From Patescibacteria group bacterium (GTDB taxonomy: Bacteria; Patescibacteriota; Patescibacteriia; Patescibacteriales; UBA12465), in NCBI GenBank assembly GCA_034002925.1, contig JAVEZP010000002.1:16655-80654 (forward strand): a stretch of 64,000 nucleotides of DNA. Reading direction: 5' to 3'. Under the pieces are notes generated by a model. The model ran no database searches and was not told where the DNA came from. It was given only the letters and a program-made list of their open reading frames with translations. Position 1 is the first letter of the stretch, and each line of letters opens with the position of its first letter. Below are positions 20,131 to 36,776 of this stretch, one piece after another. A program made the position numbers and the translations under genes.

Positions 20131-20140
20131 ATATTTAAAA

Positions 20141-24323: not shown

Positions 24324-24342
24324 TGCTCCTTTACTTTTTTTA

Positions 24343-24380
24343 AATAAAAATCAGGCTTTTACAGCCTGATTTTGTTTTTT
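24343..24380. terminator. Bidirectional hairpin terminator; left edge of the island
   Basis: Stem atcaggct/agcctgat (8 bp) with loop tttac, an A-run before it and tttgtttttt after it. Confidence 0.8.
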
Positions 24381-24417
24381 ACTCGCCTGGAGAGACAGTT
24401 TTCGAACGTGGGTGGCT
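24381..24417 (-). repeat. Unit A: most degraded tRNA 3'-end-like fragment
   Basis: actcgcctggagagacagttttcgaacgtgggtggct follows a terminator hairpin, the same layout as at tRNA-Gln. The similarity (CTGTC.., TTCGAA) is weak. Confidence 0.3.
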
Positions 24418-24440
24418 AATAATTAATGATATTTTGACTC

Positions 24441-25421
24441 TTAATTCTTCATTTGTCCAACCTCCAAATCTACTAAATTATCTAGATTAAAATTTTCTCT
24501 TTCCGTTTCACATTCTTTTCTCTCTTTATCCGGATAGTTACTGCAGTTGGGATAACGGGCTACAAATTGCACCAAATAAACATTATTTTCTATTACTGTT
24601 GTATAGGCATATTGCGTATAGACAGATCCCGCCGCGCCCTCGCTAGAAGCACCTATGCAATATTTCTGGCCGTTTATTTCCTTTTTACTTATTCGAAGAG
24701 GTAAGCTAGATTCTAGAGGGGTTTCATTACACTCTATTTCACCATTTTCTACCCAAGATTCTAACTTGGGGTATTCTTCGGCTTTAAATATGTTCGAACT
24801 ATAATTTTGAAATGAAATATAACTAGCCTTAAAACTATCTGGTAAATTTGATTCTATATTCCCTTCTTCGGTATATAAATATTTAACCCCTATCACCTTG
24901 ATTGTGCCTAAAGTTTTATAAATATCGCTTTCTTCGTTAACCAGCTCGCCGCTAATTTCTATTTTTTTCCCCTTTCTTATCTTATTAACTATATTATTTT
25001 TATCATCACTGGGCGCTTGCAGGCGATAATAATCACCATCACTATTCTTAATACCAAAGACGCATAAATCATTATGGGGGATATTCTCATCTTTTAAAGG
25101 CAGGCAAACAAATTCTCCGGAGACAATAAATAAATCTTTATTTTCTAAATTCGCTGCTTCATTTATGGATAAATTTCCACAATCACAAAGTATTTTTTTA
25201 CCACACAAAGTTGACACGCCACCGCAAGGAACTTGAACATTATTATATTCTTTACATCCAAATAACCCTTCACAATTTTTTAAGTTAAATTCGCAATATC
25301 CTTTTTCGGGATATACTTTAAAATCGTTTTTACACTTATTTGAAATTAAAAAAAATAAAGCAGTAATAATGAATAGCAAAGCAGCGAGAGAGTAGATTAG
25401 AATTTTGAATTCCTTTTTCAT
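24441..25421 (-). CDS. Membrane-anchored Cys-rich extracellular hypothetical protein
   Basis: 326 aa with an N-terminal TM segment, then a Cys-rich stretch (CKNDFKVYPEKGYCEFNLKNCEGLFGCKEYNNVQVPCGGVSTLCGKKILCDC). Confidence 0.65.
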   Translation of the reverse strand: MKKEFKILIYSLAALLFIITALFFLISNKCKNDFKVYPEKGYCEFNLKNCEGLFGCKEYNNVQVPCGGVSTLCGKKILCDCGNLSINEAANLENKDLFIVSGEFVCLPLKDENIPHNDLCVFGIKNSDGDYYRLQAPSDDKNNIVNKIRKGKKIEISGELVNEESDIYKTLGTIKVIGVKYLYTEEGNIESNLPDSFKASYISFQNYSSNIFKAEEYPKLESWVENGEIECNETPLESSLPLRISKKEINGQKYCIGASSEGAAGSVYTQYAYTTVIENNVYLVQFVARYPNCSNYPDKERKECETERENFNLDNLVDLEVGQMKN

Positions 25422-25446
25422 ACTATTTTAAATATTAACTATTTAT

Positions 25447-25474
25447 ATTATAACATACCCTCTCCTTCTATCAA
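25447..25474 (-). promoter_or_regulatory. Candidate promoter of the cassette-1 gene
   Basis: The minus strand reads TTGATA, then 16 nt, then TATAAT, about 25 nt upstream of ATG 25421. Confidence 0.45.
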
Positions 25475-25492
25475 ATAATATAAATCATGAAT

Positions 25493-25711
25493 AAAAATAA
25501 GCTATTATTAGCTTATTTTTATTATTCGCTTGGTGGTTAGGATTTGGCCACACAAAGCTCAAGTCTCGCTTGTCTACACTCACTAACTGGCCTCGCGGTG
25601 CGTCACTTCGTTCCGCACATCGCTCCGACTTTCTCATCCTGGGCGCGAAGTGCGCAGGCACTTCGCTTCCCCTCACTCATTCAAAAAATCCAGCTTACAC
25701 TGGATTTTTTT
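25493..25711. ncRNA. GC-rich structured segment bracketed by two terminator-type hairpins; candidate ncRNA, family unknown
   Basis: Hairpins at 25493-25520 and 25683-25711, both with A/T runs. The core has a perfect 9-bp hairpin gcgaagtgc-gcag-gcacttcgc and a second copy of CACTTCG that could pair alternatively. Only overlapping spurious-looking ORFs occur on both strands. Confidence 0.35.
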
Positions 25712-25743
25712 CATTCGCTCGGGGTCGCGGACGATGTTCGAAC
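25712..25743 (-). repeat. Unit D: tRNA-Gln 3'-end-like fragment
   Basis: cattcGCTCGGGGtcgcggacgatgTTCGAAC sits next to a terminator hairpin. GCTCGGGG is identical to tRNA-Gln positions 36653-36660 (plus-strand reading). Confidence 0.5.
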
Positions 25744-25752
25744 TTTTTATAA

Positions 25753-26421
25753 CTATCTATTAGGAAATTTAAAATAATTCCAAGTTATGAACTGATTATA
25801 AACTGCGTCGCGAGCTTCTGTTTGACGACTTGCAATAAACTTACCATCATAAGATTGACCGTGAAAACTAGCAGGACCATAAAAAACATACTCGTTATTA
25901 GAAGCAATAATTATATACTGCCCATTGGCGGGGCTGGCTCCACCTTCTTGTATGTTAGCCTCTCTAGCTATTTCAAATTTTTTTGAATCATCCCTACTTA
26001 AAACATATAGGCGAAATATTGCAAGAAAACAAGAAGGACATTTTTCTGCAACGTCTTGTTTTTCTTGATAACTAACTTTAACAGGAAGCCCGAAGACAAG
26101 ATCGGTGGAATGGAATTCAATATTATTATCTAAATACATTGAACCTCTCTCCGATTTTACAACTGCCTCGTTCCAGGCGCTTGGTAGAGTAATTTGGAAT
26201 CGATAATCATCATTTTTATAGACAAAATTATTATTAACCACCTCATTTTGAGACTCTGGCGTATCTTTTTGAAGGCCCGCCTTGTCCACATTAGCGGTTT
26301 CAGTTATCTGCGGACTACTTAGAGAATCATCGTTAGAGAGATTTTTATAACTATTAGAAGAACATGCCGACAAAAAAATTACAAAAATAAACAAAAAAAC
26401 TAAAGAAAGTGTTTTTTTCAT
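25753..26421 (-). CDS. Lipoprotein, hypothetical
   Basis: 222 aa with a signal peptide and lipobox (VIFLSAC). Confidence 0.7.
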   Translation of the reverse strand: MKKTLSLVFLFIFVIFLSACSSNSYKNLSNDDSLSSPQITETANVDKAGLQKDTPESQNEVVNNNFVYKNDDYRFQITLPSAWNEAVVKSERGSMYLDNNIEFHSTDLVFGLPVKVSYQEKQDVAEKCPSCFLAIFRLYVLSRDDSKKFEIAREANIQEGGASPANGQYIIIASNNEYVFYGPASFHGQSYDGKFIASRQTEARDAVYNQFITWNYFKFPNR

Positions 26422-26512
26422 ATTTTTAAATTAATTATTACACTACAAATATAACACAAAAAAAATAATTTCAAACATTTTCAGACTTTTCATTAGGGGG
26501 CGATAAAATTAT

Positions 26513-26570
26513 AAAAAAACAGGCCTTTTACACCCTGCTAATTCAACGATGCTTGGGGACAGGGATTCGG
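26513..26570 (-). repeat. Unit E: tRNA-Gln 3'-end-like fragment, best-conserved copy
   Basis: 26550-26570 tgcttggggacagggattcgg against tRNA-Gln 36652-36672 ggctcggggacagggactcga gives 17/21 identical by manual alignment. An A-run and weak hairpin precede it. Confidence 0.6.
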
Positions 26571-26679
26571 CTACACGTCGTCGCGTAAAATGGCTACCCC
26601 GTATAACCTCGTAAACGCGGCACGGGGTTCCGCCATCACGCGACTCACGTAAAATTATCACGCGGCTGCGCCACGTGAT

Positions 26680-27335
26680 AAAAGTAATCTACCACCAGAC
26701 TGAGGTCTGGTGGCTTTGTGTTTGCCGGCCATTCCGGCAAAGACGGTTTTAGTGGTTTAATTTTAATTTAAGGAATTATCTTGTCAAATAGAGATGGTTG
26801 ATCTATCTCATTGTGATGATCTTGGTGTCTGACATATCTCTTGATTATATCTTCATCAATACCTATGCTGGAAACAAAATAACCTCTTGCCCAAAGAGAA
26901 TGTTTTTCATAGAGACCATGGTGTCTTTTTATTTTCTTTTTGAGCCAAGCAGAAGACTTGCCTTTGATTATTTGCATAACATAGAAAACTGAATCCCTAG
27001 GTGTAATGAGAAGACATAAGTGGATATGATCTTCTTGAATACTTAACTCTATTATTTCCCAATGTTTCCATTTACAAACTGATTCAAATATTCGACGTAA
27101 TTCATCTTTGATTTTATTGGTATTTAATACCTTACCTCGAAACTTAGGTGTCCAGACTAAATGGAGCTTTAAATCATAGAAACAATGTGATAATGTACGA
27201 ATGGTGCGCTTTCTTGTTTGATGCATATTATTATAGCACCACTAAAACCAGTCCTGCCGGACTGCTTTTAGTATACAGCGTCGCTTTCAAACGTACACAC
27301 CCCAGCTGTGCTGGTGGTTTATAGAATAACAAAAA
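26680..27335 (-). mobile_element. IS200/IS605-family element (tnpA only) with hairpin-rich arms; boundaries approximate
   Basis: Intact tnpA flanked by hairpins at 26692-26713 (ccaccagac/gtctggtgg), 26722-26740, 27249-27264 (cagtcc/ggactg) and 27302-27314, plus the inverted 12-mer GGTTTTAGTGGT (26745-56) / ACCACTAAAACC (27238-49). Confidence 0.65.
26768..27226 (-). CDS. tnpA: IS200/IS605-family Y1 (HUH) transposase TnpA
   Basis: 152 aa with YDLKLHLVWTPKFR, the HUH motif EDHIHLCLL and the catalytic Tyr context LWARGYFVSS. Confidence 0.9.
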   Translation of the reverse strand: MHQTRKRTIRTLSHCFYDLKLHLVWTPKFRGKVLNTNKIKDELRRIFESVCKWKHWEIIELSIQEDHIHLCLLITPRDSVFYVMQIIKGKSSAWLKKKIKRHHGLYEKHSLWARGYFVSSIGIDEDIIKRYVRHQDHHNEIDQPSLFDKIIP

Positions 27336-27468
27336 ATACCTCAATTTTGAGATATTTTTTGTAGTTTACTACGTCTTTTGATGAGAACGGGTCTCTCGAA
27401 AGACGCACTAGGTTGGCTCCGAGGCTAGGACGCGAACGGGTCTCTCGAACCACGCCCGTCCCTCGGTA
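27329..27468 (-). repeat. Unit B: terminator-like hairpin plus tRNA 3'-end-like minihelix
   Basis: Shares two blocks with unit C (43/52 and 31/36 identical by hand). The minus strand ends ..CCTCGGAGCCAAC. It has an internal direct repeat gaacgggtctctcgaa x2. Confidence 0.65.
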
Positions 27469-27473
27469 AAAAA

Positions 27474-28418
27474 CTATTCAGTAGCCATAATAATCTCTCC
27501 ACACTTATCTTTATACTGATCTACAATATCAAAAATATCATCTATTTTAGGTTCTCTAGCAGTAATTTCTTCTCCGTTTTTAAATGTCGCTGTAACTTCC
27601 AAAGCATGTGTTTGCATAACTGATTCTATTTCACATTCGGCAATAGCTTGTTTTATTAAATTCCAGTTAGTAATATTTGTAAATGCATAATCTTCTGCTT
27701 TTACAATTAATTCGTCTACGTCATGATCAAATATTTTCTGTTGAACATCCTCGGGAAATATTTTCTTAATATCTTTGGTATAATCAGCTCCATCACCTGG
27801 AGCTTCATATGAAAATTTATTTATATCATAATATGACAACTCATTTGGATAATCTATTTTAACTGGACCAGATGAACCACTGACTGTAACTAACTTATTA
27901 TTTTCAATCACATATTCTCCGCAATAGGCCCAAATATATAATGGGAATAATTCTTGGTCAGGTTTTAAATTTTTAATTGTACAAAAATTATAGCTATCAT
28001 CTCGATTTTTCCAGCTAAAATGTTTTTGTATTAATAAATATCTTTCTATGGCTTGCTCTCTTGGTGTTGGGTTGTAGGCTATATTTATTTTATCTGTTAC
28101 TTGGGTTGAAGCGTTAACACAAAATTGTTTTGAATGACAACTTAAATAATTTGAGACTACCGTTTCGCCACAAAGAGAGCAAGTGTCTTGATGTTCCAAG
28201 CACTCAACTTCATTTAACTTTTCACAAGCATCTTCATCGATAAAATCATTATTTTGCAAAGATAAAAGTATTCCAGGGATTATACCTACTAAAATCAGTA
28301 CTACTCCTAAAATCAAATAGATTTTATTAAATTTATTTTGTTTTTTCTTTTGGGTAAAATAGATGATCAACCCAATTGTCCCCAAGATTAAAAATATTAG
28401 TGATGTTGGTATTGGCAT
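27474..28418 (-). CDS. Membrane-anchored Cys-rich extracellular hypothetical protein
   Basis: 314 aa with two N-terminal TM helices, then DACEKLNEVECLEHQDTCSLCGETVVSNYLSCHSKQFC. Confidence 0.65.
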   Translation of the reverse strand: MPIPTSLIFLILGTIGLIIYFTQKKKQNKFNKIYLILGVVLILVGIIPGILLSLQNNDFIDEDACEKLNEVECLEHQDTCSLCGETVVSNYLSCHSKQFCVNASTQVTDKINIAYNPTPREQAIERYLLIQKHFSWKNRDDSYNFCTIKNLKPDQELFPLYIWAYCGEYVIENNKLVTVSGSSGPVKIDYPNELSYYDINKFSYEAPGDGADYTKDIKKIFPEDVQQKIFDHDVDELIVKAEDYAFTNITNWNLIKQAIAECEIESVMQTHALEVTATFKNGEEITAREPKIDDIFDIVDQYKDKCGEIIMATE

Positions 28419-28446
28419 AAAGTTATATTAATAAATTTTTTAATCT

Positions 28447-28644
28447 CTAATTAATCTTAGTGTTATTATTCGTAAAAACATAAAAAAATAGAGCATTTAT
28501 TATAACAAACAACAAAGAAAAAATAATAGAAAATGCTATAAAACTTTCTTCTAAACTTTTTTGTAATGCCCAAATATTTATACCAATAAATATTATTCCA
28601 ATTATTGCATTGATAGAAATGTTTATAAAAATTATTTTTTTCAT
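28447..28644 (-). CDS. Small two-helix membrane protein
   Basis: 65 aa, hydrophobic, lying in an operon-like series. Confidence 0.5.
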   Translation of the reverse strand: MKKIIFINISINAIIGIIFIGINIWALQKSLEESFIAFSIIFSLLFVIINALFFYVFTNNNTKIN

Positions 28645-28661
28645 AAGTATATTTTTAATCT

Positions 28662-30098
28662 CTATAACTCATCATAATAATTTACAATACCAGAATTTTC
28701 CCCTGACACAACTTCCATATTACCAGTAATGTATACATTTAATCTACTTGTGTTTGTCGCATTAATTACCGCCTCCTCTGCTATAAATTTATCCATTTCA
28801 ACCCAGCAATCACCTGAATCTATTATCAAATTCTTAGCCGAACCTGTTAAATTAATGATACCACCATTAGCATCTAATTTTAATGTATCTATAACCTTAA
28901 CATTACCCTTTATATTATTAAACCTATGAGTCAATTTTATTTCTAAATTATCAACTTCTAAACTTCCCAATTTAACATTAGCACCTTCATTTTTTATTTT
29001 TTCAACATCTGGCATGGTTATTTCTATCACTAGGTGCTTGGTTCCTGCTCGAAACAAAATATTTCTGTTCTCTACGATCCAAGTATCAGTATTAAAAAAT
29101 GTTTCAAAGCTCGATCTTTTAATATTTAAAGTATTATCAACTTTTTCAAAGTCTAATCCGATCTGATCATACTCACTACCTTTAATTAAAATGTCAAAAT
29201 CATCACCTTGCTTAATTATTATGTCATCAAATTCAACATAAGGTGATATATAGATGTTTTTAAAATCTTTAATATCAATATGACTCTCCTGAATGTTGGC
29301 CTTCATATCTGCTTCTTTTACTTTAAACCCAGAATTCAAATAAATAAATGATAAAAGAAAAATAATTAAAAAAATACCAAGATAGATAAGCAAACGCAAT
29401 GATATTTTCTTGTTTAAATATTTCTTGCTAGGAAACAATGAAATTATTCCTAAATTAATAATAAATATTAATGGTATCGCCAAAATACAAAAGATAGAAA
29501 TGAGCATTGGATAATAACCCCAAAATCCAATAACATCTATAATTCTAAAATCAGCCATTATGTATCTAAGCCAATGGCTTGAGGGGTTGAAAAATAAATA
29601 TAAAAATATAACTGTGGATGTCAATATTCCCAAAGATCCAGCACCTAAAAATATTCCTCCAAATATTTTTTTAAAAGCTAGAACTATCTTTGAATTTGGA
29701 TATTTTTTAAATTGCTCTGATGTGCCCCTGATAACTAATCCAATTAGACCACCCGCCAAACTTAAAACAATAAAAGGGAAAAATATACCCAACAAAGCTT
29801 CAAAACTGAAAGATGGCTTGGGCAAATATCCATGATTTGAATATGTTAATAAATAGTTAATTACTACAACTGCTATATTATTAACTAAAGTCCCGATTAA
29901 TAAAATTGGTAAAAACTCATAGCTTCTATTTTTGTCTTGGACTAAAATCAATAAAATACCTGTCAAAAAAGGTAATAAAAGCATAATAAAAATAACTGGT
30001 AGATAGCCAAACATAATATTATCTAATCCACCAGGTAATATATTTAATACTGTAGTAACAATTATAGTAAAAATAAAAATGTAAAAAAGTTTTTTCAT
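28662..30098 (-). CDS. Polytopic membrane protein with a C-terminal beta-helix/GIN-like (DUF2807/DUF4097-like) domain
   Basis: 478 aa with about 7 TM helices. The C-terminal segment is repetitive (GNVKVIDTLKLDANGGIINLTGSAKNLIIDSGD...). The domain call is tentative. Confidence 0.55.
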   Translation of the reverse strand: MKKLFYIFIFTIIVTTVLNILPGGLDNIMFGYLPVIFIMLLLPFLTGILLILVQDKNRSYEFLPILLIGTLVNNIAVVVINYLLTYSNHGYLPKPSFSFEALLGIFFPFIVLSLAGGLIGLVIRGTSEQFKKYPNSKIVLAFKKIFGGIFLGAGSLGILTSTVIFLYLFFNPSSHWLRYIMADFRIIDVIGFWGYYPMLISIFCILAIPLIFIINLGIISLFPSKKYLNKKISLRLLIYLGIFLIIFLLSFIYLNSGFKVKEADMKANIQESHIDIKDFKNIYISPYVEFDDIIIKQGDDFDILIKGSEYDQIGLDFEKVDNTLNIKRSSFETFFNTDTWIVENRNILFRAGTKHLVIEITMPDVEKIKNEGANVKLGSLEVDNLEIKLTHRFNNIKGNVKVIDTLKLDANGGIINLTGSAKNLIIDSGDCWVEMDKFIAEEAVINATNTSRLNVYITGNMEVVSGENSGIVNYYDEL

Positions 30099-30104
30099 AA
30101 AAAT

Positions 30105-30749: not shown

Positions 30750-30754
30750 AAACT

Positions 30755-31645: not shown

Positions 31646-31666
31646 TATACCTTATTTAAGACAAAC

Positions 31667-31692
31667 AAAAAACACCTCTAGAGGTGTTTTTT
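31667..31692. terminator. Bidirectional hairpin inside cassette 4
   Basis: aaaaaaCACCTCTAGAGGTGtttttt is a perfect 14-nt palindrome flanked by an A-run and a T-run. Confidence 0.7.
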
Positions 31693-31703
31693 GAAAATAT
31701 ATA

Positions 31704-32759
31704 CTATTTCTTCCAAACATTCTTTGCAAACTTCCATCCATATTTTGCAATAATAAGCATAATAAACAGATAGATAATATATTGTAGAATTAGGAATAAC
31801 AATGATACTAGATTAATAGTAATATCTTGTGCAACCGTATTAATATCTCTAACAAAAGATTTTACTGCTACTTTCCATGATTCTTTTAAATTTTGCCCAT
31901 CAATAAACTTATTTTCTACCACACGAACATTAAAATATGTATATTCTAACCTATCAAGCTGTTCGGCTTTAGATCTATTAATTCTTTCCAATTGTGCATT
32001 AATATTTATCTTCTCTTGAGTTAATCTTTCAATAATTCTAATTTTACTATCAATGATTTTAGCTAGACTTTCTACGTCTTGAGTCCTAGTAGCTAAATCT
32101 GTAATATCATCATAAGCACTAACTGCATTATTTAATGTTTCTTCAATAGAAGCCATCTTCTTTTCTAATATTTCAACTTCACTGGTGTAATCGTCAATTA
32201 ATCTTTTAATGGTATATGTATTTTCATTTAATTCTTTAGGATCTAGTTCCTCGATAATAGTTAATATCTCATCAACGCTATCGTGCTTAACTTTAAAATT
32301 ATAGCTACAGCTTCTTTCGTATTCATTAGCATTTTCAAAAATTACATCTTCGCGTGATTTCAGGTCAGCAACTTTTTTGCAAGTATCTTCTAAATGGCGG
32401 GTTTCAATATTTGCACCATACTCAGTAACTTCGAAATCTTCAGCATCATCACCAGTTGTAGCTGTATTATCCATTGGGGGCATGGACGGTTCTGGGGCTA
32501 TCACATTTCTTATGGATAAACCAACCGAACCGCTAGATTCACCATAACCCATATCTTTCATAGCGTATTCTTCATCATCCATATCAAACACGGCATCCTG
32601 CGTGACCACACTTCTACCATTAGACCCAGGAGTTAAAGATTTAAAAGAAGATCCGATTAAACGAAAGGCTAAAGTAATTACAATAATTACCACTAAGGCT
32701 AACCCCGCAATTTTAAAAATATTGGCTGGTTTTAAATTGAGGTTGTTTGGAAATTGCAT
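31704..32759 (-). CDS. DUF4349-like protein: N-terminal TM, coiled coil, C-terminal TM
   Basis: 351 aa whose architecture and segments (TYTIKRLIDDYTSEVEILEKKM.., YTYFNVRVVE, C-terminal TM) resemble DUF4349 (recalled). Confidence 0.5.
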   Translation of the reverse strand: MQFPNNLNLKPANIFKIAGLALVVIIVITLAFRLIGSSFKSLTPGSNGRSVVTQDAVFDMDDEEYAMKDMGYGESSGSVGLSIRNVIAPEPSMPPMDNTATTGDDAEDFEVTEYGANIETRHLEDTCKKVADLKSREDVIFENANEYERSCSYNFKVKHDSVDEILTIIEELDPKELNENTYTIKRLIDDYTSEVEILEKKMASIEETLNNAVSAYDDITDLATRTQDVESLAKIIDSKIRIIERLTQEKININAQLERINRSKAEQLDRLEYTYFNVRVVENKFIDGQNLKESWKVAVKSFVRDINTVAQDITINLVSLLFLILQYIIYLFIMLIIAKYGWKFAKNVWKK

Positions 32760-32855
32760 ATGAGTTATTTAAGAGTCAATTATTAATTGATAAATGTATA
32801 TTTTATATTATATCAGATTTTGATAAAAAATAACAAAAAAATAACATTTTTTAAC

Positions 32856-33087
32856 CAAACAAAAAATACCTCTAAATTGAGATATTTTTTGTAACCTACT
32901 ACGCATTTCAGTTCGAATCCCTTTCCCAGTAGGAAATGAAAGTTTCGAACTAAAAATTGTTTTTGGCTAATATTAGATGCGTATGGGTCTCTCGAAACGC
33001 GCACTATGTTGGCTCCGGCGAACATATTCGAACTGGAGGTCGGCCTCTAAACACTATTTTCATTCTCCGTGTTTAATATTAGCCAAA
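32856..33087 (-). repeat. Unit C: composite junction with a terminator-like hairpin, T-loop fragments and a tRNA-Gln flank/3'-end-like copy inside a 14-bp inverted repeat
   Basis: The head matches unit B. 32955-33020 aligns with the tRNA-Gln downstream flank plus 3' end (tttttggctaat.., ..gttggctcc). A perfect inverted repeat TTTGGCTAATATTA (32962-75) / TAATATTAGCCAAA (33074-87) is present. Confidence 0.6.
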
Positions 33088-33160
33088 TTATTTCATAAAT
33101 ATTTTTATTAAAAAAGTTCGAATCCGACTACCGGTTTTGATTTAACATTATTCACAATAT

Positions 33161-33349
33161 TTAAAGACTTAATCTTTTAAAAGCATCTAGTGCGTCGACT
33201 ACACAATTTTTTGGCACATTTTTATATACAAAATATCCAGAATTAGTTGGAATAACAAAATTTAGTGAATTATTTTCGCTTATCTTGTCAGAAGAAAAAC
33301 TTTCTAAAACTTTTTCTACATCCATATCTTTTTGAATATTTTTTAACAT
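33161..33349 (-). CDS. Small hypothetical protein
   Basis: 62 aa ORF, last in the cassette-5 gene series. No family recognised. Confidence 0.4.
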   Translation of the reverse strand: MLKNIQKDMDVEKVLESFSSDKISENNSLNFVIPTNSGYFVYKNVPKNCVVDALDAFKRLSL

Positions 33350-33374
33350 TCCAATATTTTTTTCAAATTTTTTA

Positions 33375-33788
33375 TCATTTTTTAAAAATATTTAATAATT
33401 TCGACGCCACTTCTTTAGGTCTTAAATCATAATTAAGTAAATCATTGATACCCAGCCATTCTATCTCATGAATACCTTCATAACCAGAATTTACATCATA
33501 TTCAGGACCATCTCCTGTGCCAAGTTCTCCGGATACAATATCACAAAAATAAAAATGCTCTAATTGTTTAATCTCCCCCCTGTCAAATCTCTCGGATGTA
33601 AAGTTTTCAATTACTTTTATCTCTACGCCGAGTTCCTCTTTGCATTCCCTTTTCATGGCGGTTTCTAAATCCTCGCCTTGTTCAACTCCGCCACCAGGAA
33701 AAACAAAATAGACTAAATCTTGTTTTGATCTTTTAATTGTTAAAAGCTTGTCATCTTTGATAATAATAGCACGAACTCTGTTTAGCAT
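33375..33788 (-). CDS. Nudix hydrolase
   Basis: Nudix box GGGVEQGEDLETAMKRECKEELGVE. It is a paralog of the N-terminus of the adjacent 522-aa protein. Confidence 0.85.
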   Translation of the reverse strand: MLNRVRAIIIKDDKLLTIKRSKQDLVYFVFPGGGVEQGEDLETAMKRECKEELGVEIKVIENFTSERFDRGEIKQLEHFYFCDIVSGELGTGDGPEYDVNSGYEGIHEIEWLGINDLLNYDLRPKEVASKLLNIFKK

Positions 33789-33811
33789 AAATGATATTGA
33801 TAATTTTTTTA

Positions 33812-33847
33812 TAAAAAAGGAGAAGACTGTTTTAAAAATCTTCTCCT
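33812..33847 (-). terminator. Intrinsic terminator after the 522-aa gene
   Basis: Stem aggagaaga/tcttctcct (9 bp) with a 12-nt loop, then TTTTTT on the minus strand. Confidence 0.65.
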
Positions 33848-33857
33848 ATTGCTAACG

Positions 33858-35426
33858 TTAAAAAACGAGTGTCTGTTCAAATTTGAGAATATTCTCAGAA
33901 TAACCGCCATCTGAATTATTAAAGTTGATATCGGCTATTTTACTAACCATCTCAGCACCTCTACTTTTTTTTTCCTGATCTTTCTGTCTTGTTTTCTCTG
34001 TGGCTTCAGATAGAGGAATGTCTAGTTCTGCAGAAGCACGACTACATCTTACTTCAAAAGAAGCGTCCAAATAAACGATTTGAAATTTTATTCCAAAAAG
34101 CAATTTAAGAAATGCCGGGGTGTATGGTTCGTGTAAACTCTCAATAGTAAAATCCTGAACATAGTAATGTGTTTTGCAAAAATGCAAAAATTCCATCGCA
34201 ATATTCTCAGGTGTGTCATCCTCGCCACGCCGCTTCAAAATTTCCACAAAGTAACCAAGTTTTAAACGATAATACCCATTATTTTTGCGAAAATGTTCCG
34301 CAAAACCGCTTTTACCGCATTCACTCAAACCACCAAAACCGATAATACTCCTTACGCTACTTAATATTTCAGACAAAGACAACTTAGATATTTTATTAAT
34401 TAATAATCTTAATTTGTTTTGCGTCTCACAAATTGAGCTATTAACCTTTATTTTTTCTGTCGCATCATTATTGAAATAATAATCCATAGCTTCTTTGAGT
34501 AATTCTTGATACATCAAATAAAACTCATTTTCTTCTGTCGTAAAACAACTTGACTCATTCTGAAGCAATGAAATATATGGAGTAATCGACTTTTGATATT
34601 CCACATCTGGCTGTAGAAGAATATTATGCTCATCTTCTATACAATAATTAAGATTTTCAGTAAAAAACGAGTCAACGTCATTCATAGAATCAATGAGATT
34701 CGACCCTGTCCTTATTGATATAGTTGCTGCACACACAGCTTTAAACATCAACGTTCCTCGGTCTAAAATCACAGTTGAATCTACAAATTCTGAATTTCTC
34801 TTATTCAAAGATTCAATCATAATAGCAAGAAAATCTTCAATTTTTACCTCTTTAAACCACCAATCAAACATACCGTGGGTTCCTAGTTTTGGCCACCGCA
34901 CAGAGTACTCCGTCAATGATTTTGTAAAGCTTAACTGATCACTACCAAAAAAATGAAGCAACTTTATTTGCTGGCTCTTTCCAACACCATCAACGCCATT
35001 GATAGCAATTAGCATTCTAGATTTCTCTAGTAGTTTTTTCTTTACCTCTTCTGGCTGAATGCTTTTTAATGAAAAATCATCCAGTGGAACCCATTCAAGT
35101 GCATATAAACCTTCGTAATTTGTCTCATTCTGAAATTCTGGGCCGGACCCTGTTCCAAGAATACCGCCAATAATTTCACAAAAATAGAAGTATTCACACT
35201 GTTTCTCATTGGATTCACCCAATTCATAACGTGCAAACAAATTGCCAACTTGAACTTCAACGCCAAGTTCTTCTCTACATTCTCTAACCAGGGCTGTTTC
35301 CTTGTTTTTATCGGTATTTTCGACACCGCCACCTGGAAAGACCCAATACTCTCTTCCTTTCTTCATTCTATGGATGAGTAAAATTGCATTACCATTTTTA
35401 ATTATGGCCCTAACTCTTTCTTTCAT
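33858..35426 (-). CDS. Fusion protein: N-terminal Nudix hydrolase plus two P-loop (nucleoside/nucleotide-kinase-like) modules
   Basis: Nudix box GGGVENTDKNKETALVRECREELGVE. Walker A 1 is INGVDGVGKS (Tmk/dNK-like) and Walker A 2 is GFGGLSECGKS. Confidence 0.75.
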   Translation of the reverse strand: MKERVRAIIKNGNAILLIHRMKKGREYWVFPGGGVENTDKNKETALVRECREELGVEVQVGNLFARYELGESNEKQCEYFYFCEIIGGILGTGSGPEFQNETNYEGLYALEWVPLDDFSLKSIQPEEVKKKLLEKSRMLIAINGVDGVGKSQQIKLLHFFGSDQLSFTKSLTEYSVRWPKLGTHGMFDWWFKEVKIEDFLAIMIESLNKRNSEFVDSTVILDRGTLMFKAVCAATISIRTGSNLIDSMNDVDSFFTENLNYCIEDEHNILLQPDVEYQKSITPYISLLQNESSCFTTEENEFYLMYQELLKEAMDYYFNNDATEKIKVNSSICETQNKLRLLINKISKLSLSEILSSVRSIIGFGGLSECGKSGFAEHFRKNNGYYRLKLGYFVEILKRRGEDDTPENIAMEFLHFCKTHYYVQDFTIESLHEPYTPAFLKLLFGIKFQIVYLDASFEVRCSRASAELDIPLSEATEKTRQKDQEKKSRGAEMVSKIADINFNNSDGGYSENILKFEQTLVF

Positions 35427-35509
35427 AATATTCTTCTTTAATTGTTTATGTACTGTTTAACAATATTTTTATTGCTATTTTTGGATAATACCACAAGAAC
35501 TCAAAAATG

Positions 35510-36430
35510 TCAAAATATTTTTCCGGCAAATTTTATGCCATTTTCAATTACAACATTTAATTCTTCCTGACTTAAATTAGCCTTTTCTATTTCTTTTTTT
35601 ATATTAGTATTAAATGTTATTGGATCATCAGTGTTTATTGTTACAGAAATACCTAAAGATAAGGCTTTCTTTATTGGGTTAATAGTCCCCCAGTTAACAA
35701 CCCCCAATATCTCGTTACTAATCGGACACATATCTAAACATATTCCATTTTTTTTGATAAATTTAATTGCTTCAGTAGACTCCAGCAGAGCTATTCCGTG
35801 AGCCACCCTATCTGGCGTTAACTTCTTTAATATTTTAAGATTAACTAAATCGCTAGTAAATTCTCCTAAATGAATAATAATTTTCTTTTTAAACTTACTT
35901 CTTACTTTTAACAAAACCTTGTAGTACTTTTCAAATTTATCAAAATCGTCTTCATTTAAAGTTATATCGATTCCAGAAATAGAATCTATATTTTTCTTAT
36001 CAAACAGCGCCACCAAACTCTTTTCTATTTCTTGTTCAGATTTCGTCAAATCAATAGCGGCTATGTAAGAAATAGACTTTCCATCATAACCAATAAGCGC
36101 ATCGTCGTATATTTCTTTAGCATGAGCAAGATTATTAACACTTTTCCATCTATCAAGATGCAAACTTAGACGTAAATCAATATGCGTTATATCGTATTTT
36201 TTCATTTCTTCTACTGTCTGCTGGGCGACTTTCTTAAAATTATCCAAGGTAAAGTGTTTGCTATCTGGGACAGGCAATGTTTTCCTTAAAAAATCTAATC
36301 TATCCTGAGGTTTCAATTTCAAAAATTCCTTATTACTAAAAATACTATAAAAATCATTAAGCTTCTCTGGGTTTACTATTTTTACAAGTCTAAGAACAGA
36401 CTCATAATGCTGGTGCAAAATATAATACAT
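35510..36430 (-). CDS. Adenosine/AMP-deaminase-family amidohydrolase
   Basis: ADA signature set: LHQH (N-terminal HxH), IHLGEF (HxGE), RVAHGI, MCPISN (CPxSN) and INTDDP. Confidence 0.75.
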   Translation of the reverse strand: MYYILHQHYESVLRLVKIVNPEKLNDFYSIFSNKEFLKLKPQDRLDFLRKTLPVPDSKHFTLDNFKKVAQQTVEEMKKYDITHIDLRLSLHLDRWKSVNNLAHAKEIYDDALIGYDGKSISYIAAIDLTKSEQEIEKSLVALFDKKNIDSISGIDITLNEDDFDKFEKYYKVLLKVRSKFKKKIIIHLGEFTSDLVNLKILKKLTPDRVAHGIALLESTEAIKFIKKNGICLDMCPISNEILGVVNWGTINPIKKALSLGISVTINTDDPITFNTNIKKEIEKANLSQEELNVVIENGIKFAGKIF

Positions 36431-36563
36431 ATTTTTATTTACTTCTTATGTTTCTTATAATCTCATAAAGACATCCTTAAGTCAAAATAAAAACATATAA
36501 CTATTAATCGGATTCGAACTAATAATATCCTTTATTTACGCCTATTTCAACTCATTTGACTCC

Positions 36564-36592
36564 AACAAAAAAACTCAGCATAAACTGAGTTT
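36564..36592 (-). terminator. Intrinsic terminator of tRNA-Gln
   Basis: Stem aaactcag/ctgagttt (8 bp) with loop cataaa, then a T-run on the minus strand. Confidence 0.7.
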
Positions 36593-36650
36593 CTTTGTTT
36601 TTTGGCTAATTTTACGACAAATATGTCGGTCTACAGCACAAAAAATGTGT

Positions 36651-36724
36651 TGGCTCGGGGACAGGGACTCGAACCCCGATAGCCAGGACCAGAACCTGGA
36701 GTCCTACCATTAGACGATCCCCGA
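36651..36724 (-). tRNA. tRNA-Gln (anticodon CTG), CCA encoded
   Basis: The minus strand reads TCGGGGA TC GTCT AATGGTA GGAC T CCAGG TTCTGGT CCTGG CTAT CGGGG TTCGAGT CCCTG TCCCCGA G CCA, a full cloverleaf with U1-A72 and G73. Confidence 0.95.
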
Positions 36725-36776
36725 ATAAAAATAGTTTAAATTAATTAAACTATTCGTTTGTATTATAAAGACTTGC

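What the first reader, a model, noticed from the sequence alone, without database searches (positions are those of the whole stretch)
24343..36724. tRNA-Gln-anchored ~12 kb island split into five cassettes by degenerate 'terminator + tRNA-Gln 3'-end' units, with no integrase
An intact tRNA-Gln(CTG) (36651-36724, minus strand) is followed by a hairpin terminator (36564-36592). Five more units with the same layout and orientation lie to its left: A 24343-24417 (weak), D 25683-25743, E 26513-26570, B 27329-27468 and C 32856-33040. On the minus strand the acceptor/CCA-like cores read: tRNA CCCCGAGCCAAC, D CCCCGAGCGAAT, E CCCCAAGCATCG, B CCTCGGAGCCAAC, C GCCGGAGCCAAC. E matches the tRNA 3' part at 17/21 positions, and C also copies the flank downstream of the tRNA (tttttggctaat.., ..tatg..ggtct..cac..gttggctc). 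The units delimit five gene blocks: (1) a Cys-rich surface protein, (2) a lipoprotein, (3) an IS200-type element, (4) six membrane/secreted proteins including SanA and a DUF4349-like protein, and (5) an ADA-like / Nudix-kinase / Nudix cluster. The genes flanking the island look core (the DUF2207 side and lysS-greA). Repeated displaced tRNA 3' ends are the classic scar of serial site-specific integration at a tRNA att site. However, no tyrosine or serine recombinase is present anywhere in the window. The cassettes would therefore have to be mobilised in trans or be fossilised, which recalls integron cassettes or tRNA-island cargo arrays. The island also looks more AT-rich than the core by eye; this was not computed.
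Basis: partly seen in the sequence, partly recalled or inferred. Interest (0 to 1): 0.8.

Follow-up and report, generated by a model that had tools for sequence, protein, structure and literature searches.

The report
Integration-scar array at tRNA-Gln
Downstream of a tRNA-Gln gene in an uncultured Patescibacteria (CPR) genome lies a 12 kb patchwork of foreign gene blocks separated by leftover copies of the tRNA's 3' end, which is the fossil record of repeated site-specific insertions, a known kind of genomic island whose integrase (a large serine recombinase seen in relatives) has been lost here.

Summary
An intact tRNA-Gln(CTG) lies at 36651-36724 (-). Six same-strand units carrying tRNA-3'-end-like cores follow it: C, B, E, D, A and a missed D'.

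Against the window's own tRNA end, E, C and B beat shuffles; D, D' and A do not. Relatives validate those three:
- D plus its flank is 92-95% identical to the 3' end plus native flank of intact tRNA-Gln genes in L018 and L088.
- D' sits where L088 has a perfect 23-nt repeat of the tRNA end.
- E plus flank matches L004.
- A's right half is the native tRNA-Gln terminator of L002, L003, L016 and L006.

In L088 the tRNA is followed directly by the same GC-rich element and gene c1 that lie 10.9 kb from the tRNA in the window. A 95%-identical strain (L082) diverges completely 155 nt after the tRNA.

No recombinase is present among 40 window ORFs. In relatives, a large serine recombinase gene from inovirus-like elements abuts the tRNA end on the opposite strand. 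The D-type and A units show the 5-bp motif shift expected of a serine-integrase attP arm.

This is a decayed tandem array of integrated elements. Its closest published analogue is the Dehalococcoides ssrA islands, so it is a new member of a known kind. One unexplained extra is a tRNA-Gln-specific GC-rich foldback mini-element.

The parts
36651..36724 (-). Intact tRNA-Gln(CTG) with an encoded CCA. It is the anchor and target of integration (attB-type arm: the GTTC motif lies 18 nt before GAGC).
   Evidence: ARAGORN; Rfam tRNA 55.1 bits. The lysS-tRNA-Gln arrangement is conserved in about 25 relatives. Spacing.
36597..36652 (-). Flank of the tRNA: CAAC...ATTAGCCAAAAAAC. It is read as element-derived (attL, P' side) and as a decayed 3' end of a serine-recombinase gene on the opposite strand. 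CCA is the reverse complement of a Trp codon, and GTCCCCGAG is the reverse complement of Leu-Gly-Asp.
   Evidence: Colinear with the recombinase 3' ends that abut tRNA-Gln in L014, L085, L010 and L024. Shared at 95% identity with L082. This is an inference; the nhmmer support is weak.
36571..36592 (-). Hairpin terminator downstream of the tRNA.
   Evidence: A 91% identical copy lies 1.8 kb downstream of the tRNA in L005.
36505..36520 (-). T-loop-like motif AGTTCGAATCCGATTA. Identity with the 95%-identical strain L082 ends just after it, at 36495.
33161..36430 (-). Block 5 cargo: adenosine-deaminase-like protein (35510-36430), Nudix fusion protein (33858-35426), Nudix protein (33375-33788) and a small ORF (33161-33349).
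   Evidence: Pfam; NCBIfam. PADLOC hits to the ADA domain of CARF_ADA and to PDC-S07. Absent from L082.
33115..33130 (+). Inverted copy of the junction motif (AGTTCGAATCCGACTA). Together with 36505-36520 it brackets block 5.
   Evidence: A 13/13 exact inverted match, E=0.001 between the two intergenic regions.
32859..33035 (-). Unit C, in four pieces: a tRNA-type core CAGTTCGAATATGTTCGCCGGAGCCAAC (33008-33035, 18-nt spacing); a recombinase-end-like flank reaching a second GTTCGAA (32942-33007); a 42-nt palindrome (32910-32951); and a terminator (32859-32892).
   Evidence: z=5.2 against the tRNA plus flank. Best nhmmer hit in the window to the recombinase-3'-end profile, but only E=0.44. The distance from CCAAC to the next GTTCGAA is 57 nt by my own count from the sequences, the same in C and in L014. 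Repeats with B.
27474..32759 (-). Block 4 cargo: six genes, including DUF218/SanA (30105-30761) and a DUF2807 protein (28662-30098). These are the lowest-GC genes of the window.
   Evidence: Pfam; GC. The same block at 99.9% identity or better in five other assemblies.
27329..27451 (-). Unit B, in three pieces: core GGTTCGAGAGACCCGTTCGCGTCCTAGCCTCGGAGCCAAC (27412-27451; the inner GTTCG lies 18 nt before GAGCC); flank CTAGTGCG...TTTCGAGAGACCC (27380-27411), which is a tandem partial duplicate; and a terminator (27329-27362).
   Evidence: z=3.7. 91% identical to C over 33-36 nt stretches.
26684..27317 (-). IS200-type insertion sequence: Y1 transposase at 26768-27226, with subterminal CCACCAG hairpins at both ends.
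   Evidence: Pfam Y1_Tnp, 3e-31. Hairpins. A Logan contig breaks at 27279.
26570..26683 (-). Right part of a second GC-rich hairpin element, ending ...CGACGACGTGTAGC next to unit E.
   Evidence: Shares GTCGCGTGATGGC...GCCATTTTAYGCGAYGAC..GTGrC with the right end of the L088 and L006 elements.
26508..26569 (-). Unit E: the last 19 nt of a tRNA-Gln (CGAATCCCTGTCCCCAAGC, 26551-26569) plus the flank and terminator that follow the intact tRNA-Gln of L004.
   Evidence: 17/19 match to the window's own tRNA, z=6.2. 87% identical over 62 nt to L004:2788-2849. The same left junction is present in L006.
25753..26421 (-). Block 2 cargo: a 222-aa protein with no family hit.
25717..25743 (-). Unit D (D-type): GTTCGAACATCGTCCGCGACCCCGAGC, with 23 nt from GTTC to GAGC. 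It is read as an attP arm plus core (attR).
   Evidence: The same unit (at most 6 mismatches) occurs in L002, L012, L088 and L154, always 0.8-2.3 kb downstream of tRNA-Gln on the same strand. The spacing is 23 nt in all five copies and in the free-phage L174 arm.
25547..25711 (-). Terminator (25683-25711) plus GC-rich foldback element 1 (25547-25682). This is the native flank of tRNA-Gln in L018, L088, L154, L006 and L089.
   Evidence: The nhmmer profile finds it only next to tRNA-Gln ends. Fold z=-3.7 here and -7.5 in L006. Covariation.
25490..25546 (-).
   Evidence: Positional homologue of the perfect 23-nt direct repeat in L088. The flank is 90% identical over 146 nt.
24441..25421 (-). Block 1 cargo: c1, a 326-aa protein. 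In L088 and L007 its homologue sits immediately after tRNA-Gln.
   Evidence: tblastn: 80% identity over 339 aa in L088 and 75% over 185 aa in L007. 82% nucleotide identity to L088, against 72% for the greA-lysS stretch that contains lysS.
24340..24419 (-). Unit A, the outer boundary. The left half is D-type (TTAGCCAC..GTTCGAA.., 23-nt spacing, 24385-24419). The right half (24340-24384) is GAGT plus the native tRNA-Gln terminator of L002, L003, L016 and L006.
   Evidence: z up to 16, 0/1000 shuffles. Spacing by count from the sequence printed. Not significant against the window's own tRNA.

Best explanation
**What it is.** The stretch 24340-36724 is a decayed tandem array of DNA segments. They were inserted one after another by site-specific recombination into the 3' end of tRNA-Gln in a Patescibacteria (Falkowbacteria-like) genome.

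**How it forms.** Each insertion rebuilt the tRNA's 3' end from element DNA. It pushed the previous 3' end, together with whatever then followed it, further downstream.
- The outermost scar (A) still carries the original terminator of the tRNA.
- The next scars (D, D') carry an older neighbourhood: a GC-rich element plus gene c1.
- E carries a third kind of native flank.
- B, C and the present tRNA flank carry what look like the last about 60-100 nt of a recombinase gene that read towards the tRNA.

**The enzyme.** It was most likely a large serine recombinase of the kind encoded by small inovirus-like elements (Zot, rolling-circle Rep, recombinase) in related genomes. Its C-terminal codons overlap the tRNA end on the opposite strand. 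All recombinase and phage genes have since been deleted here, so the array is now fixed cargo. That cargo comprises membrane or secreted proteins, a Nudix/deaminase cluster and an IS200.

**Shown:**
- the units are displaced tRNA-Gln ends carrying native flanks;
- the locus is a clade-wide hotspot;
- recombinase genes sit at this site in relatives;
- none sits here.

**Inferred:**
- that the serine recombinase made these particular junctions;
- the order and number of events;
- that the array is no longer mobile.
For: 1. **Native flanks.**
   - D plus flank is 94.6% identical over 111 nt to the intact tRNA-Gln end plus flank of L018, and 92% over 137 nt to that of L088.
   - E plus flank is 87% identical over 62 nt to L004.
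   - A's right half is the terminator after tRNA-Gln in L002, L003, L016 and L006.

2. **Before and after.** L088 has tRNA-Gln, terminator, GC element, a 23-nt direct repeat, then c1. This is colinear with window 25724->24419 at 82-92% identity. In the window that block starts 10.9 kb from the tRNA. L007 also has c1 139 nt after the tRNA.

3. **Hotspot.**
   - Synteny upstream of the tRNA is conserved in about 25 relatives and breaks at the tRNA.
   - Many contigs end at or just after the tRNA.
   - L082, 94.8% identical over 2.4 kb, diverges at 36495 and shares nothing further.

4. **Direction and position control.** Displaced 19-mers, D-type units and GC elements occur only downstream of the tRNA and on the same strand, across 2.4 Mb of loci.

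5. **Recombinase at this site in relatives.**
   - An LSR C-terminus (...RWLGD*) overlaps the tRNA-Gln end in L014 and L085. Remnants are present in L010 and L024.
   - A full 555-aa LSR does the same at tRNA-Asn in L164 and at tRNA-Trp in L175.
   - These LSRs sit in a Zot / G2P-Rep / LSR module that is filed as viral in IMG/VR.

6. **Spacing rule.** The distance from GTTC to GAGC is 18 nt in every tRNA examined. It is 23 nt in all five D-type units, in A, and in the free-phage arm of L174. This matches the 5-bp shift of the zinc-ribbon-domain motif between attB and attP of serine integrases (PMC3783163).

7. **Shared flank motif.** GAGCCAAC(N)TAG is shared by B, C and the recombinase-bearing loci; the window's own tRNA flank shares only GAGCCAAC.

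8. **TTCGAA distribution.** There are 10 sites inside the island and 0 in the other 51.5 kb, where 8.6 are expected.
Against: - No recombinase, Rep or Zot remnant is statistically detectable in the window. The best nhmmer hit of the recombinase-3'-end profile is unit C at only E=0.44, and tblastn finds nothing.
- B and C have tRNA-type (18-nt) spacing but an element-type right flank. A simple attP x attB series by one serine integrase does not predict this. A second crossover position (in the T-loop, as for the 19-23 nt repeats around the GC element) or homologous recombination has to be invoked.
- The closest genome-level relatives are only 70-79% identical in LysS, so the 'before' states come from other genera. 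The one close strain (L082) shows replacement, not a cassette-by-cassette difference.
- GC content and GC3 barely set the island apart.
- One sample's assembly runs uninterrupted through C and B, so there is no sign of present-day cassette variation there.
Confidence: 0.78

Rival explanations
1. The array is a living cassette platform. The integrase-less blocks are cis-mobilisable cassettes that a serine recombinase, encoded elsewhere in the genome or by an infecting inovirus-like phage, still excises, shuffles and inserts at the tRNA-Gln end, in an integron-like manner.
For: - The blocks are bounded by att-like units, and the same unit types recur in five or more genomes.
- The c1 module and the GC element are 82-95% identical across genomes whose lysS stretch is about 72% identical, which indicates recent transfer.
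- The close strain L082 has different cargo at a T-loop-like junction motif, and block 5 is bracketed by inverted copies of that motif.
- Recombinase-bearing elements exist in the clade.
Against: - Several units are heavily decayed: D' matches at 14/19, and the core of A reads GAGT.
- Serine integrases do not normally recombine attL-type or attR-type sites without a directionality factor.
- There is no recombinase in 64 kb.
- The Logan assembly of one sample is continuous across C and B.
- No circular junctions could be looked for.
Confidence: 0.1
2. There was one large integration rather than five. The tRNA flank (attL) and D (attR) are the two ends of a single about 10.9 kb element inserted into an L088-like arrangement. 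C, B and E were already inside that element, or arose later through internal rearrangement and IS200 activity.
For: - T is an attB arm plus an element flank, while D is a 23-nt-spaced arm plus the native flank. Those are exactly the two products of one serine-integrase event.
- L088 preserves the uninterrupted target.
Against: - E carries a different native flank (L004-type), and A carries yet another (L002/L016-type). At least three different 'tRNA neighbourhoods' are therefore stacked.
- B and C each repeat the tRNA end plus an element-type flank.
Confidence: 0.2
3. The units belong to a genome-wide interspersed repeat (REP- or MITE-like, perhaps moved by the IS200-type Y1 transposase) that only by chance resembles a tRNA end.
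For: - GC-rich hairpin arrays lie next to the Y1 transposase.
- The element folds strongly and shows compensatory changes.
Against: - Within the window, all long GC-rich non-coding stretches and all TTCGAA sites are inside the island.
- In 2.4 Mb of related loci, the GC element, the D-type units and the displaced 19-mers occur only downstream of tRNA-Gln on the same strand.
- The flanks are the native tRNA flanks of other genomes.
Confidence: 0.04
4. The locus is a mosaic built by homologous recombination after DNA uptake. The conserved tRNA and the repeated tRNA-end copies act as recombination anchors, and no integrase acted at most junctions.
For: - Window and L082 are 95% identical up to a short shared motif and unrelated beyond it.
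- Modules are shared between distant genomes.
Against: - This does not explain how partial 3'-end copies arise in the first place.
- It does not explain why they are all in one orientation and only downstream.
- It does not explain the regular 18-nt versus 23-nt spacing.
Confidence: 0.08

Closest known systems
Dehalococcoides ssrA-specific genomic islands (McMurdie et al. 2011, PMC3146451)
   Same: - Several tandem islands lie downstream of a single t(m)RNA gene, each bounded by a roughly 20-bp direct repeat of the gene's 3' end.
- The integrase is a large serine recombinase (DsiB, CcrB-like) encoded on the reverse strand next to attL.
- The insertion point was inferred to lie in the T-loop.
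- 15 islands there lack any integration module and were interpreted as cis-mobilisable or fixed.
   Different: - The target here is tRNA-Gln, not tmRNA, and the host is a CPR bacterium.
- The window has no integration module in any block.
- The recombinase seen in relatives belongs to small inovirus-like elements (Zot, G2P-type Rep), and its C-terminal codons overlap the tRNA.
- The units fall into two spacing classes.
- A GC-rich foldback mini-element is part of the site.
tRNA-anchored genomic islands and tandem arrays as catalogued by Islander/TIGER (PMC4383910; PMC9580842)
   Same: A regenerated tRNA and a displaced 3' fragment mark the island ends, and tandem arrays occur at occupied sites.
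   Different: Those catalogues rest mainly on tyrosine integrases and require an integrase gene in the island. This array would be missed because it has none.
Cis-mobilisable elements (CIMEs) and accretion at tRNA 3' ends in streptococci (reviewed in PMC5704250)
   Same: Segments are flanked by att sites, carry no integrase or transfer genes, and are stacked next to one another at one tRNA-type site (the details are from my own knowledge of that literature).
   Different: There the sites are recognised by tyrosine integrases of co-resident ICEs, and mobilisation has been shown experimentally. Here nothing shows current mobility, and no helper element is seen.
Serine-integrase attP/attB architecture (Rutherford et al. 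2013, PMC3783163)
   Same: The recognisable motif (here GTTCGAA-like) lies 5 bp further from the core in the element-derived arm than in the host arm: 23 nt against 18 nt.
   Different: No protein-DNA data exist for this family. The crossover dinucleotide is not mapped. The 19-23 nt direct repeats around the GC element are longer than typical serine-integrase cores.
Integron cassette arrays
   Same: Both are a unidirectional row of promoter-poor gene blocks separated by short recombination-site-like units.
   Different: There is no IntI, no attI/Pc and no attC-type imperfect palindromes. The units are tRNA-end copies with terminators. This is not a member of the family.

Membership tests
tRNA-anchored genomic island (Islander-type) | Intact tRNA gene at one end. 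| tested here: met
   tRNA-Gln at 36651-36724.
tRNA-anchored genomic island (Islander-type) | Direct-orientation copy of the same tRNA's 3' end at the far end or ends. | tested here: met
   E matches at 17/19. D, A and D' are validated through relatives. Such copies occur only downstream and on the same strand.
tRNA-anchored genomic island (Islander-type) | Integrase gene inside the island, next to the tRNA. | tested here: not met
   No recombinase domain in 40 window ORFs, and tblastn with LSRs is negative. The feature is present at this site in relatives L014 and L085, with remnants in L010 and L024.
tRNA-anchored genomic island (Islander-type) | Interrupts synteny relative to related genomes. 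| tested here: met
Tandem array / cis-mobilisable elements (CIME) | Two or more segments each bounded by att-type repeats, without integration or transfer genes. | tested here: met
   Seven units bound five gene blocks, and there are no mobility genes other than the IS200.
Tandem array / cis-mobilisable elements (CIME) | att sites still recombine (excision or mobilisation by a helper). | not testable with these tools
   This needs reads or experiments. The only indirect hint is negative: the contig is continuous across C and B.
Large-serine-recombinase attachment sites | Cognate LSR gene with resolvase, recombinase and zinc-ribbon domains. | tested here: not met
   Absent from the window. Present in relatives (L164, 555 aa; zinc-ribbon Pfam hit for P0007 and P0008).
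Large-serine-recombinase attachment sites | The zinc-ribbon-domain motif is shifted about 5 bp outward in the attP arm relative to the attB arm. | tested here: met
   18 nt in 8 tRNA-Gln genes and 3 other target tRNAs. 23 nt in 5 D-type units, in unit A and in the free-phage arm of L174 (rule from PMC3783163). That the motif is bound by the ZD is an assumption.
Large-serine-recombinase attachment sites | Short common core with a defined crossover dinucleotide. | tested here: inconclusive
   L174 compared with L173/L176 points to a core at GGAGCCA. The GC element, however, is flanked by 19-23 nt repeats that start in the T-loop.
Dehalococcoides-type t(m)RNA serine-recombinase islands | Serine recombinase on the reverse strand adjacent to attL, with multiple direct repeats of the 3' end within tens of kb downstream. 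| tested here: inconclusive
   The repeat array is present in the window. The recombinase is present only in relatives.
Integron | IntI tyrosine recombinase with adjacent attI and Pc. | tested here: not met
   No tyrosine recombinase domain in any scanned ORF.
Integron | attC sites (60-140 nt imperfect palindromes with conserved R/L boxes) between cassettes. | tested here: not met
   The units are tRNA-end copies plus Rho-independent-type terminators. There was no Rfam match of any kind.
IS200/IS605 (26684-27317 only) | Y1 HUH transposase and subterminal hairpins, without inverted terminal repeats. | tested here: met
   Y1_Tnp, 3e-31. CCACCAG hairpins at both ends.

The most novel reading that the evidence does not exclude
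Two linked readings remain possible.

1. The tRNA-Gln end of this CPR lineage may be an active, recombinase-in-trans cassette site. Serine recombinases of inovirus-like phages would recognise a T-loop-like GTTCGAA motif plus the GAGC(CA) core. They would load, swap and invert integrase-less cargo blocks, including candidate anti-phage genes such as the deaminase/Nudix cluster here and the dGTPase in strain L082.

2. The 190-310 nt GC-rich foldback element may be a non-autonomous miniature integrative element. It carries an inverted and a direct copy of the tRNA end. It could alternatively be a folded single-stranded attP, in the manner of CTX-type filamentous phages, or an unrecognised structured RNA tied to tRNA-Gln.
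Probability: 0.12. Interest if true: 0.75.

Novelty: new member of a known kind. Interest (0 to 1): 0.45.

Why it matters
Patescibacteria have tiny genomes and are thought to have few mobile elements, so it is useful to know where and how they take up accessory genes.

- **A recurrent hotspot.** The lysS-tRNA-Gln locus is a hotspot across a whole family-level clade. Its scars can be read precisely even though every integrase gene has been lost, which integrase-dependent island finders would miss.
- **Assembly breaks.** The hotspot explains why many MAG contigs break exactly at this tRNA.
- **A candidate enzyme.** The data link the hotspot to a family of large serine recombinases carried by inovirus-like elements that target tRNA 3' ends (Gln, Asn, Trp). 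The att arms appear to obey the known attP/attB spacing rule, which gives testable att sites for a new set of integrases.
- **Limits.** The phenomenon itself, a tandem island array at a t(m)RNA gene with integrase-less members, is already described.

Tried and rejected
- **Rfam.** A scan at gathering threshold over the whole window, and at E up to 5-10 over the island and the L088 element, found only the two tRNAs. There is no known RNA family for the units or the GC element.
- **Recombinase remnants in the window.** tblastn with three LSRs, Zot and Rep found nothing. An nhmmer profile of recombinase 3' ends ranks unit C first, but only at E=0.44. The remnant reading of the T, B and C flanks therefore stays an inference.
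- **Reading the isolated GTTCGAA fragments as codons.** I tried reading them as remnants of the recombinase motifs RFEP, LGSN or VRKST. This was abandoned because the motif itself dictates the amino acids and, being palindromic, leaves the orientation ambiguous.
- **Direct repeats in L162 and L164.** I looked for a direct repeat of the tRNA-Asn end to size an intact element. None lies within 10 kb.
- **GC-element motif in IMG/VR.** The search returned two coding chance matches only.
- **Exact-protein look-ups for blocks 4 and 5.** These returned only short contigs of the same strain. Contig breaks fall at the tRNA, at 33370 and in the IS200, not at C or B, so there is no cassette-level variation to report.
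- **Left boundary from synteny.** Only the small gene at 19732-20208 is shared with L007 and L003, so DUF2207 and GNAT cannot be called core. The boundary rests on unit A instead.
- **Composition as an island signal.** This was too weak to use.
- **Decaying tRNA gene array.** This was considered and rejected because only parts 3' of the T-loop are ever repeated.

Full report
**What is in the window**

The window is a low-GC (33%) stretch from an uncultured Patescibacteria genome. The best LysS matches are MAGs labelled Falkowbacteria, Parcubacteria or Patescibacteria, at 79% identity or less.

ARAGORN and Rfam confirm an intact tRNA-Gln(CTG) at 36651-36724 on the minus strand, directly downstream of greA-lysS. 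Exact coordinates are given.

The gene blocks between the units are as follows (Pfam):
- an adenosine-deaminase-like / Nudix-fusion / Nudix cluster (33161-36430);
- six genes including DUF218/SanA and a DUF2807 protein (27474-32759);
- an IS200-type Y1 transposase (26768-27226);
- a 222-aa protein (25753-26421);
- a 326-aa protein, c1 (24441-25421).

**Is the unit similarity more than chance?**

I aligned each unit against the window's own tRNA 3' part plus 55 nt of flank and compared the score with 1000 dinucleotide shuffles.

| Unit | z-score | Shuffles at or above observed |
|---|---|---|
| E | 6.2 | 0/1000 |
| C | 5.2 | 0/1000 |
| B | 3.7 | 5/1000 |
| D | 1.7 | 87/1000 |
| A | 0.2 | 450/1000 |
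| D' | 0.3 | 376/1000 |

E, C and B pass. D, A and D' do not. B and C are also clear paralogues of each other, with 33-36 nt stretches at 91% identity that include the terminator.

The decisive evidence for D, A and D' comes from other genomes:
- **D.** D and the 103 nt that follow it are 94.6% identical to the last 8 nt plus the native downstream flank of the intact tRNA-Gln of L018 (E=4e-44). The match to L088 is 92%.
- **E.** E and its flank are 87% identical over 62 nt to the end plus flank of the intact tRNA-Gln of L004.
- **A.** The right half of A (24340-24384) is the terminator that directly follows ...CCCCGAGC of the tRNA-Gln in L002, L003 and L016, and of the second copy in L006. The z-scores are 7.6-16, and no shuffle out of 1000 reached them.
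- **D'.** Its flank is 90% identical over 146 nt.

As a built-in control, I scanned 21 loci for copies of each locus's own terminal 19-mer, allowing up to 4 mismatches. Copies turned up only downstream of the tRNA and only on the same strand. None lay in the 10 kb upstream.

**The locus is a hotspot in the whole clade**

The order (40745 gene)-Wzy-greA-lysS-tRNA-Gln is conserved in about 25 relatives, and synteny stops at the tRNA. Many contigs end within the tRNA or a few bases after it, for example L008, L011, L015, L020 and L006. This is what assemblers do at population-variable sites.

L088 shows an unfilled state. It runs tRNA-Gln, terminator, GC-rich element, direct repeat, terminator, c1. 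This is colinear with window 25724->24419 at 82-92% nucleotide identity, whereas the greA-lysS stretch of the same two genomes is 72% identical. L007 likewise has a c1 homologue 139 nt after the tRNA. In the window that block begins 10.9 kb from the tRNA.

The only close strain found is L082, which is 94.8% identical over 2.4 kb of greA-lysS-tRNA-flank. It follows the window up to 36495, just past a motif GTTCGAATCCGA. After that it carries entirely different genes (dGTPase-like protein, ribonucleotide reductase and others), none of which is in the window.

**Which enzyme?**

The window has no recombinase. Pfam scans of 40 ORFs gave only the IS200 Y1 transposase. tblastn with serine recombinases, Zot and Rep found nothing.

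In relatives, however, a large serine recombinase (LSR) gene lies on the opposite strand, abutting the tRNA-Gln end:
- L014 has a 250-aa C-terminal part with the CxxC...YYxC zinc ribbon, ending ...RWLGD*. The contig ends inside the gene.
- L085 has the same arrangement.
- L010 retains a 61-aa remnant at 62% identity, and L024 a 69-aa remnant at 36%.

Database relatives of this protein are mostly fragments, some carrying the Zn_ribbon_recom domain.

Full-length members (555 aa in L164) end in tRNA-Asn or tRNA-Trp in the same overlapping way. They sit in a conserved module of a 568-aa protein, Zot, a G2P-type rolling-circle Rep, a 64-aa protein and the LSR. That module also occurs on 4.8-16 kb IMG/VR contigs, so it is an inovirus-like element.

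The codons Trp-Leu-Gly-Asp are the reverse complement of GTCCCCGAGCCA. This explains two things. First, the window's tRNA has an encoded CCA followed by AC. Second, GAGCCAAC recurs at the tRNA, at B and at C, with B, C, L014 and L085 all continuing CAAC(N)TAG. Only loci with this element-type flank have the encoded CCA.

**A spacing rule that fits serine integrases**

From the G of the GTTC(G)A motif to GAGC there are:
- 18 nt in all eight tRNA-Gln genes examined and in three other target tRNAs;
- 23 nt in all five D-type units (window D, L088, L002, L012, L154);
- 23 nt in the window's unit A, counted from the sequence printed;
- 23 nt in the arm of L174, an IMG/VR contig whose recombinase gene does not run into a tRNA.

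Rutherford et al. showed that the zinc-ribbon-domain motif lies 5 bp closer to the centre in attB than in attP (PMC3783163). On that reading:
- D and A are attP-arm-plus-core joined to native tRNA flanks (attR-type).
- The tRNA with its CAAC... flank is attB-arm joined to the element side (attL-type).

D-type units occur in 2.4 Mb of loci only 0.8-10.9 kb downstream of tRNA-Gln, always on the tRNA strand.

**What does not fit neatly**

C and B have the tRNA-type 18-nt spacing, yet they are followed by the element-type flank. A pure attP x attB series by one enzyme does not produce that. They look like displaced attL sites.

Producing them needs one of two things. One is events whose crossover lies further 5', in the T-loop, as for the 19-23 nt repeats around the GC element in L006, L018, L088 and L154. 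The other is Campbell-type homologous integration of a circle that carried a tRNA-end copy.

Block 5 is bracketed by inverted copies of AGTTCGAATCCGAyTA (36505-36520 and 33115-33130). Unit C contains further inverted pieces. The T-loop core TTCGAA is palindromic, so orientation-free joining is conceivable, but I could not test it.

The number and order of events therefore remain inferences. T and D could be the two ends of one event.

**The GC-rich foldback element**

A profile of its core finds it seven times in all fetched DNA. Each time it is on the tRNA strand and starts about 36 nt after a tRNA-Gln end (L006, L018, L088, L089, L154) or after a D-type unit (the second copy in L154, and the window).

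It consists of:
- a terminator;
- an inverted copy of the tRNA end split by a hairpin (GGGGA-hairpin-CAGGGAT);
- about 100-220 nt of GC-rich hairpins;
- a direct 19-23 nt copy of the tRNA end.

It folds far better than shuffles: z=-7.5 in L006 and -3.7 for the decayed window copy. In the six-sequence alignment, 13 of 55 predicted pairs show compensatory changes. It has no Rfam match.

Copies are 91-95% identical between genomes whose lysS stretch is about 71-72% identical at the nucleotide level. A second, partial copy lies next to the IS200 and ends at unit E.

I cannot say whether it is a recombination-site structure, a miniature non-autonomous element or an RNA.

**Comparison with what is known**

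The closest published system is the set of Dehalococcoides ssrA islands (PMC3146451). Those are tandem islands downstream of tmRNA, each bounded by a 20-bp repeat of the 3' end. A CcrB-like serine recombinase lies on the reverse strand next to attL, and insertion was inferred in the T-loop. Fifteen of those islands have no integration module and were interpreted as cis-mobilisable or fixed.

The general principle, a regenerated tRNA plus a displaced fragment, is the basis of Islander (PMC4383910). Accretion and CIMEs are reviewed in PMC5704250.

The window is therefore a new member of a known kind. What is new is the host (CPR), the target (tRNA-Gln), the apparent vehicle (inovirus-like elements with an LSR whose C-terminus overlaps the tRNA) and the foldback element. 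A full-text search found no paper linking serine recombinases, tRNA targets and Patescibacteria.

The integron analogy fails on every defining feature.

**Other checks**

GC content is 0.317 in the island against 0.337 elsewhere. Only block 4 genes are clearly lower, at 0.276-0.32 against 0.346 +/- 0.023 for core genes.

TTCGAA is absent from the 51.5 kb outside the island, where a second-order Markov model expects 8.6 sites. It occurs 10 times inside the island, where 3.4 are expected. In relatives, TTCGAA sites also cluster just after the tRNA.

**Verdict**

The feature is a fossil integration array of a known type, with a plausible serine-recombinase origin. The small tRNA-Gln-linked GC-rich element remains unexplained and is worth a second look.

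Noticed in passing
window 1-24300 and 36750-64000 versus 24300-36750: The palindrome TTCGAA is absent from 51.5 kb outside the island, where 8.6 sites are expected by a second-order Markov model and 18 by a first-order model. It occurs 10 times inside the island. This looks like restriction-site avoidance in the core genome (the BstBI/AsuII-type site, from my own knowledge), with the island exempt. GGATCC and GTATAC are also absent from the core.
   Followed up: partly
window 25547-25711; L006:11641-11871; L018:12608-12815; L088:4186-4517; L089:2603-2752; L154:2204-2413 and 3943-4170: A GC-rich foldback element of 190-330 nt is found only directly after a tRNA-Gln 3' end or a D-type unit. It is bounded by an inverted (hairpin-split) copy and a direct copy of the tRNA end. 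It folds strongly, shows compensatory changes and has no Rfam family. Copies are 91-95% identical across genomes whose lysS stretch is about 71-72% identical at the nucleotide level.
   Followed up: partly
L164:8023-10798; L162:4858-10966; L173-L176 (IMG/VR): A conserved inovirus-like module (568-aa protein, Zot, G2P-type Rep, 64-aa protein, 555-aa large serine recombinase) has recombinase C-terminal codons that run into the 3' end of tRNA-Asn, tRNA-Trp or another tRNA on the opposite strand. In L174 the gene instead ends ...SWLHELYIFRTL* without a tRNA.
   Followed up: partly
L082:2486-5254 versus window 33161-36430: At the same junction, two strains that are 95% identical carry different nucleotide-directed enzymes. 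L082 has a dGTPase matching the PADLOC defence model at 7e-57. The window has a deaminase matching the ADA domain of CARF_ADA, plus two Nudix proteins matching candidate system PDC-S07. This may be anti-phage cargo, but the matches are to generic enzyme domains.
   Followed up: partly
L008, L011, L015, L020, L006, L014, L085, L001: Contigs of many related MAGs, and the Logan contig of this very strain, end inside or within a few bases of the tRNA-Gln gene. This points to population-level variation or repeats at this site.
   Followed up: no
window 36651-36653; L014, L082, L085: tRNA-Gln has a genome-encoded CCA only in loci whose flank is of the recombinase type (GAGCCAAC). The other relatives lack it. 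The CCA is the reverse complement of the recombinase's Trp codon.
   Followed up: partly
window 25485-25676 and 32813-33025: Two ORFs (63 and 70 aa) lie wholly inside the GC-rich element and unit C. One of them was called as a gene in a public assembly (L166). Both are probably not genes.
   Followed up: no
window 24441-25421; L088:4631-5653; L007:11736-12293: Gene c1 and its upstream region are more similar between these genomes than lysS is: 80% amino-acid and 82-92% nucleotide identity, against 70% amino-acid and 72% nucleotide identity for lysS. This suggests recent lateral transfer of the module. No family hit in Pfam, NCBIfam or PADLOC.
   Followed up: partly
window 27377-27470 and 32985-32996: A short motif TTTCGAGAGACCC (GGGTCTCTCGAA on the plus strand) occurs three times: twice in tandem in B and once in C. 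It occurs nowhere else in the window. Its origin is unexplained.
   Followed up: no
L002:11700-11810; L006:11920-12030; L016:13150-13260; L154:2450-2560; L003:16900-16950: Another conserved non-coding module lies 70-400 nt after the tRNA-Gln flank in several relatives. It carries two GGTTCGAA(C/T)C motifs (...CCAAGccaGTTCGAACC...GATTTTATTGGTCyATATTgGTTCGAATCCAC...). It is absent from the window.
   Followed up: no
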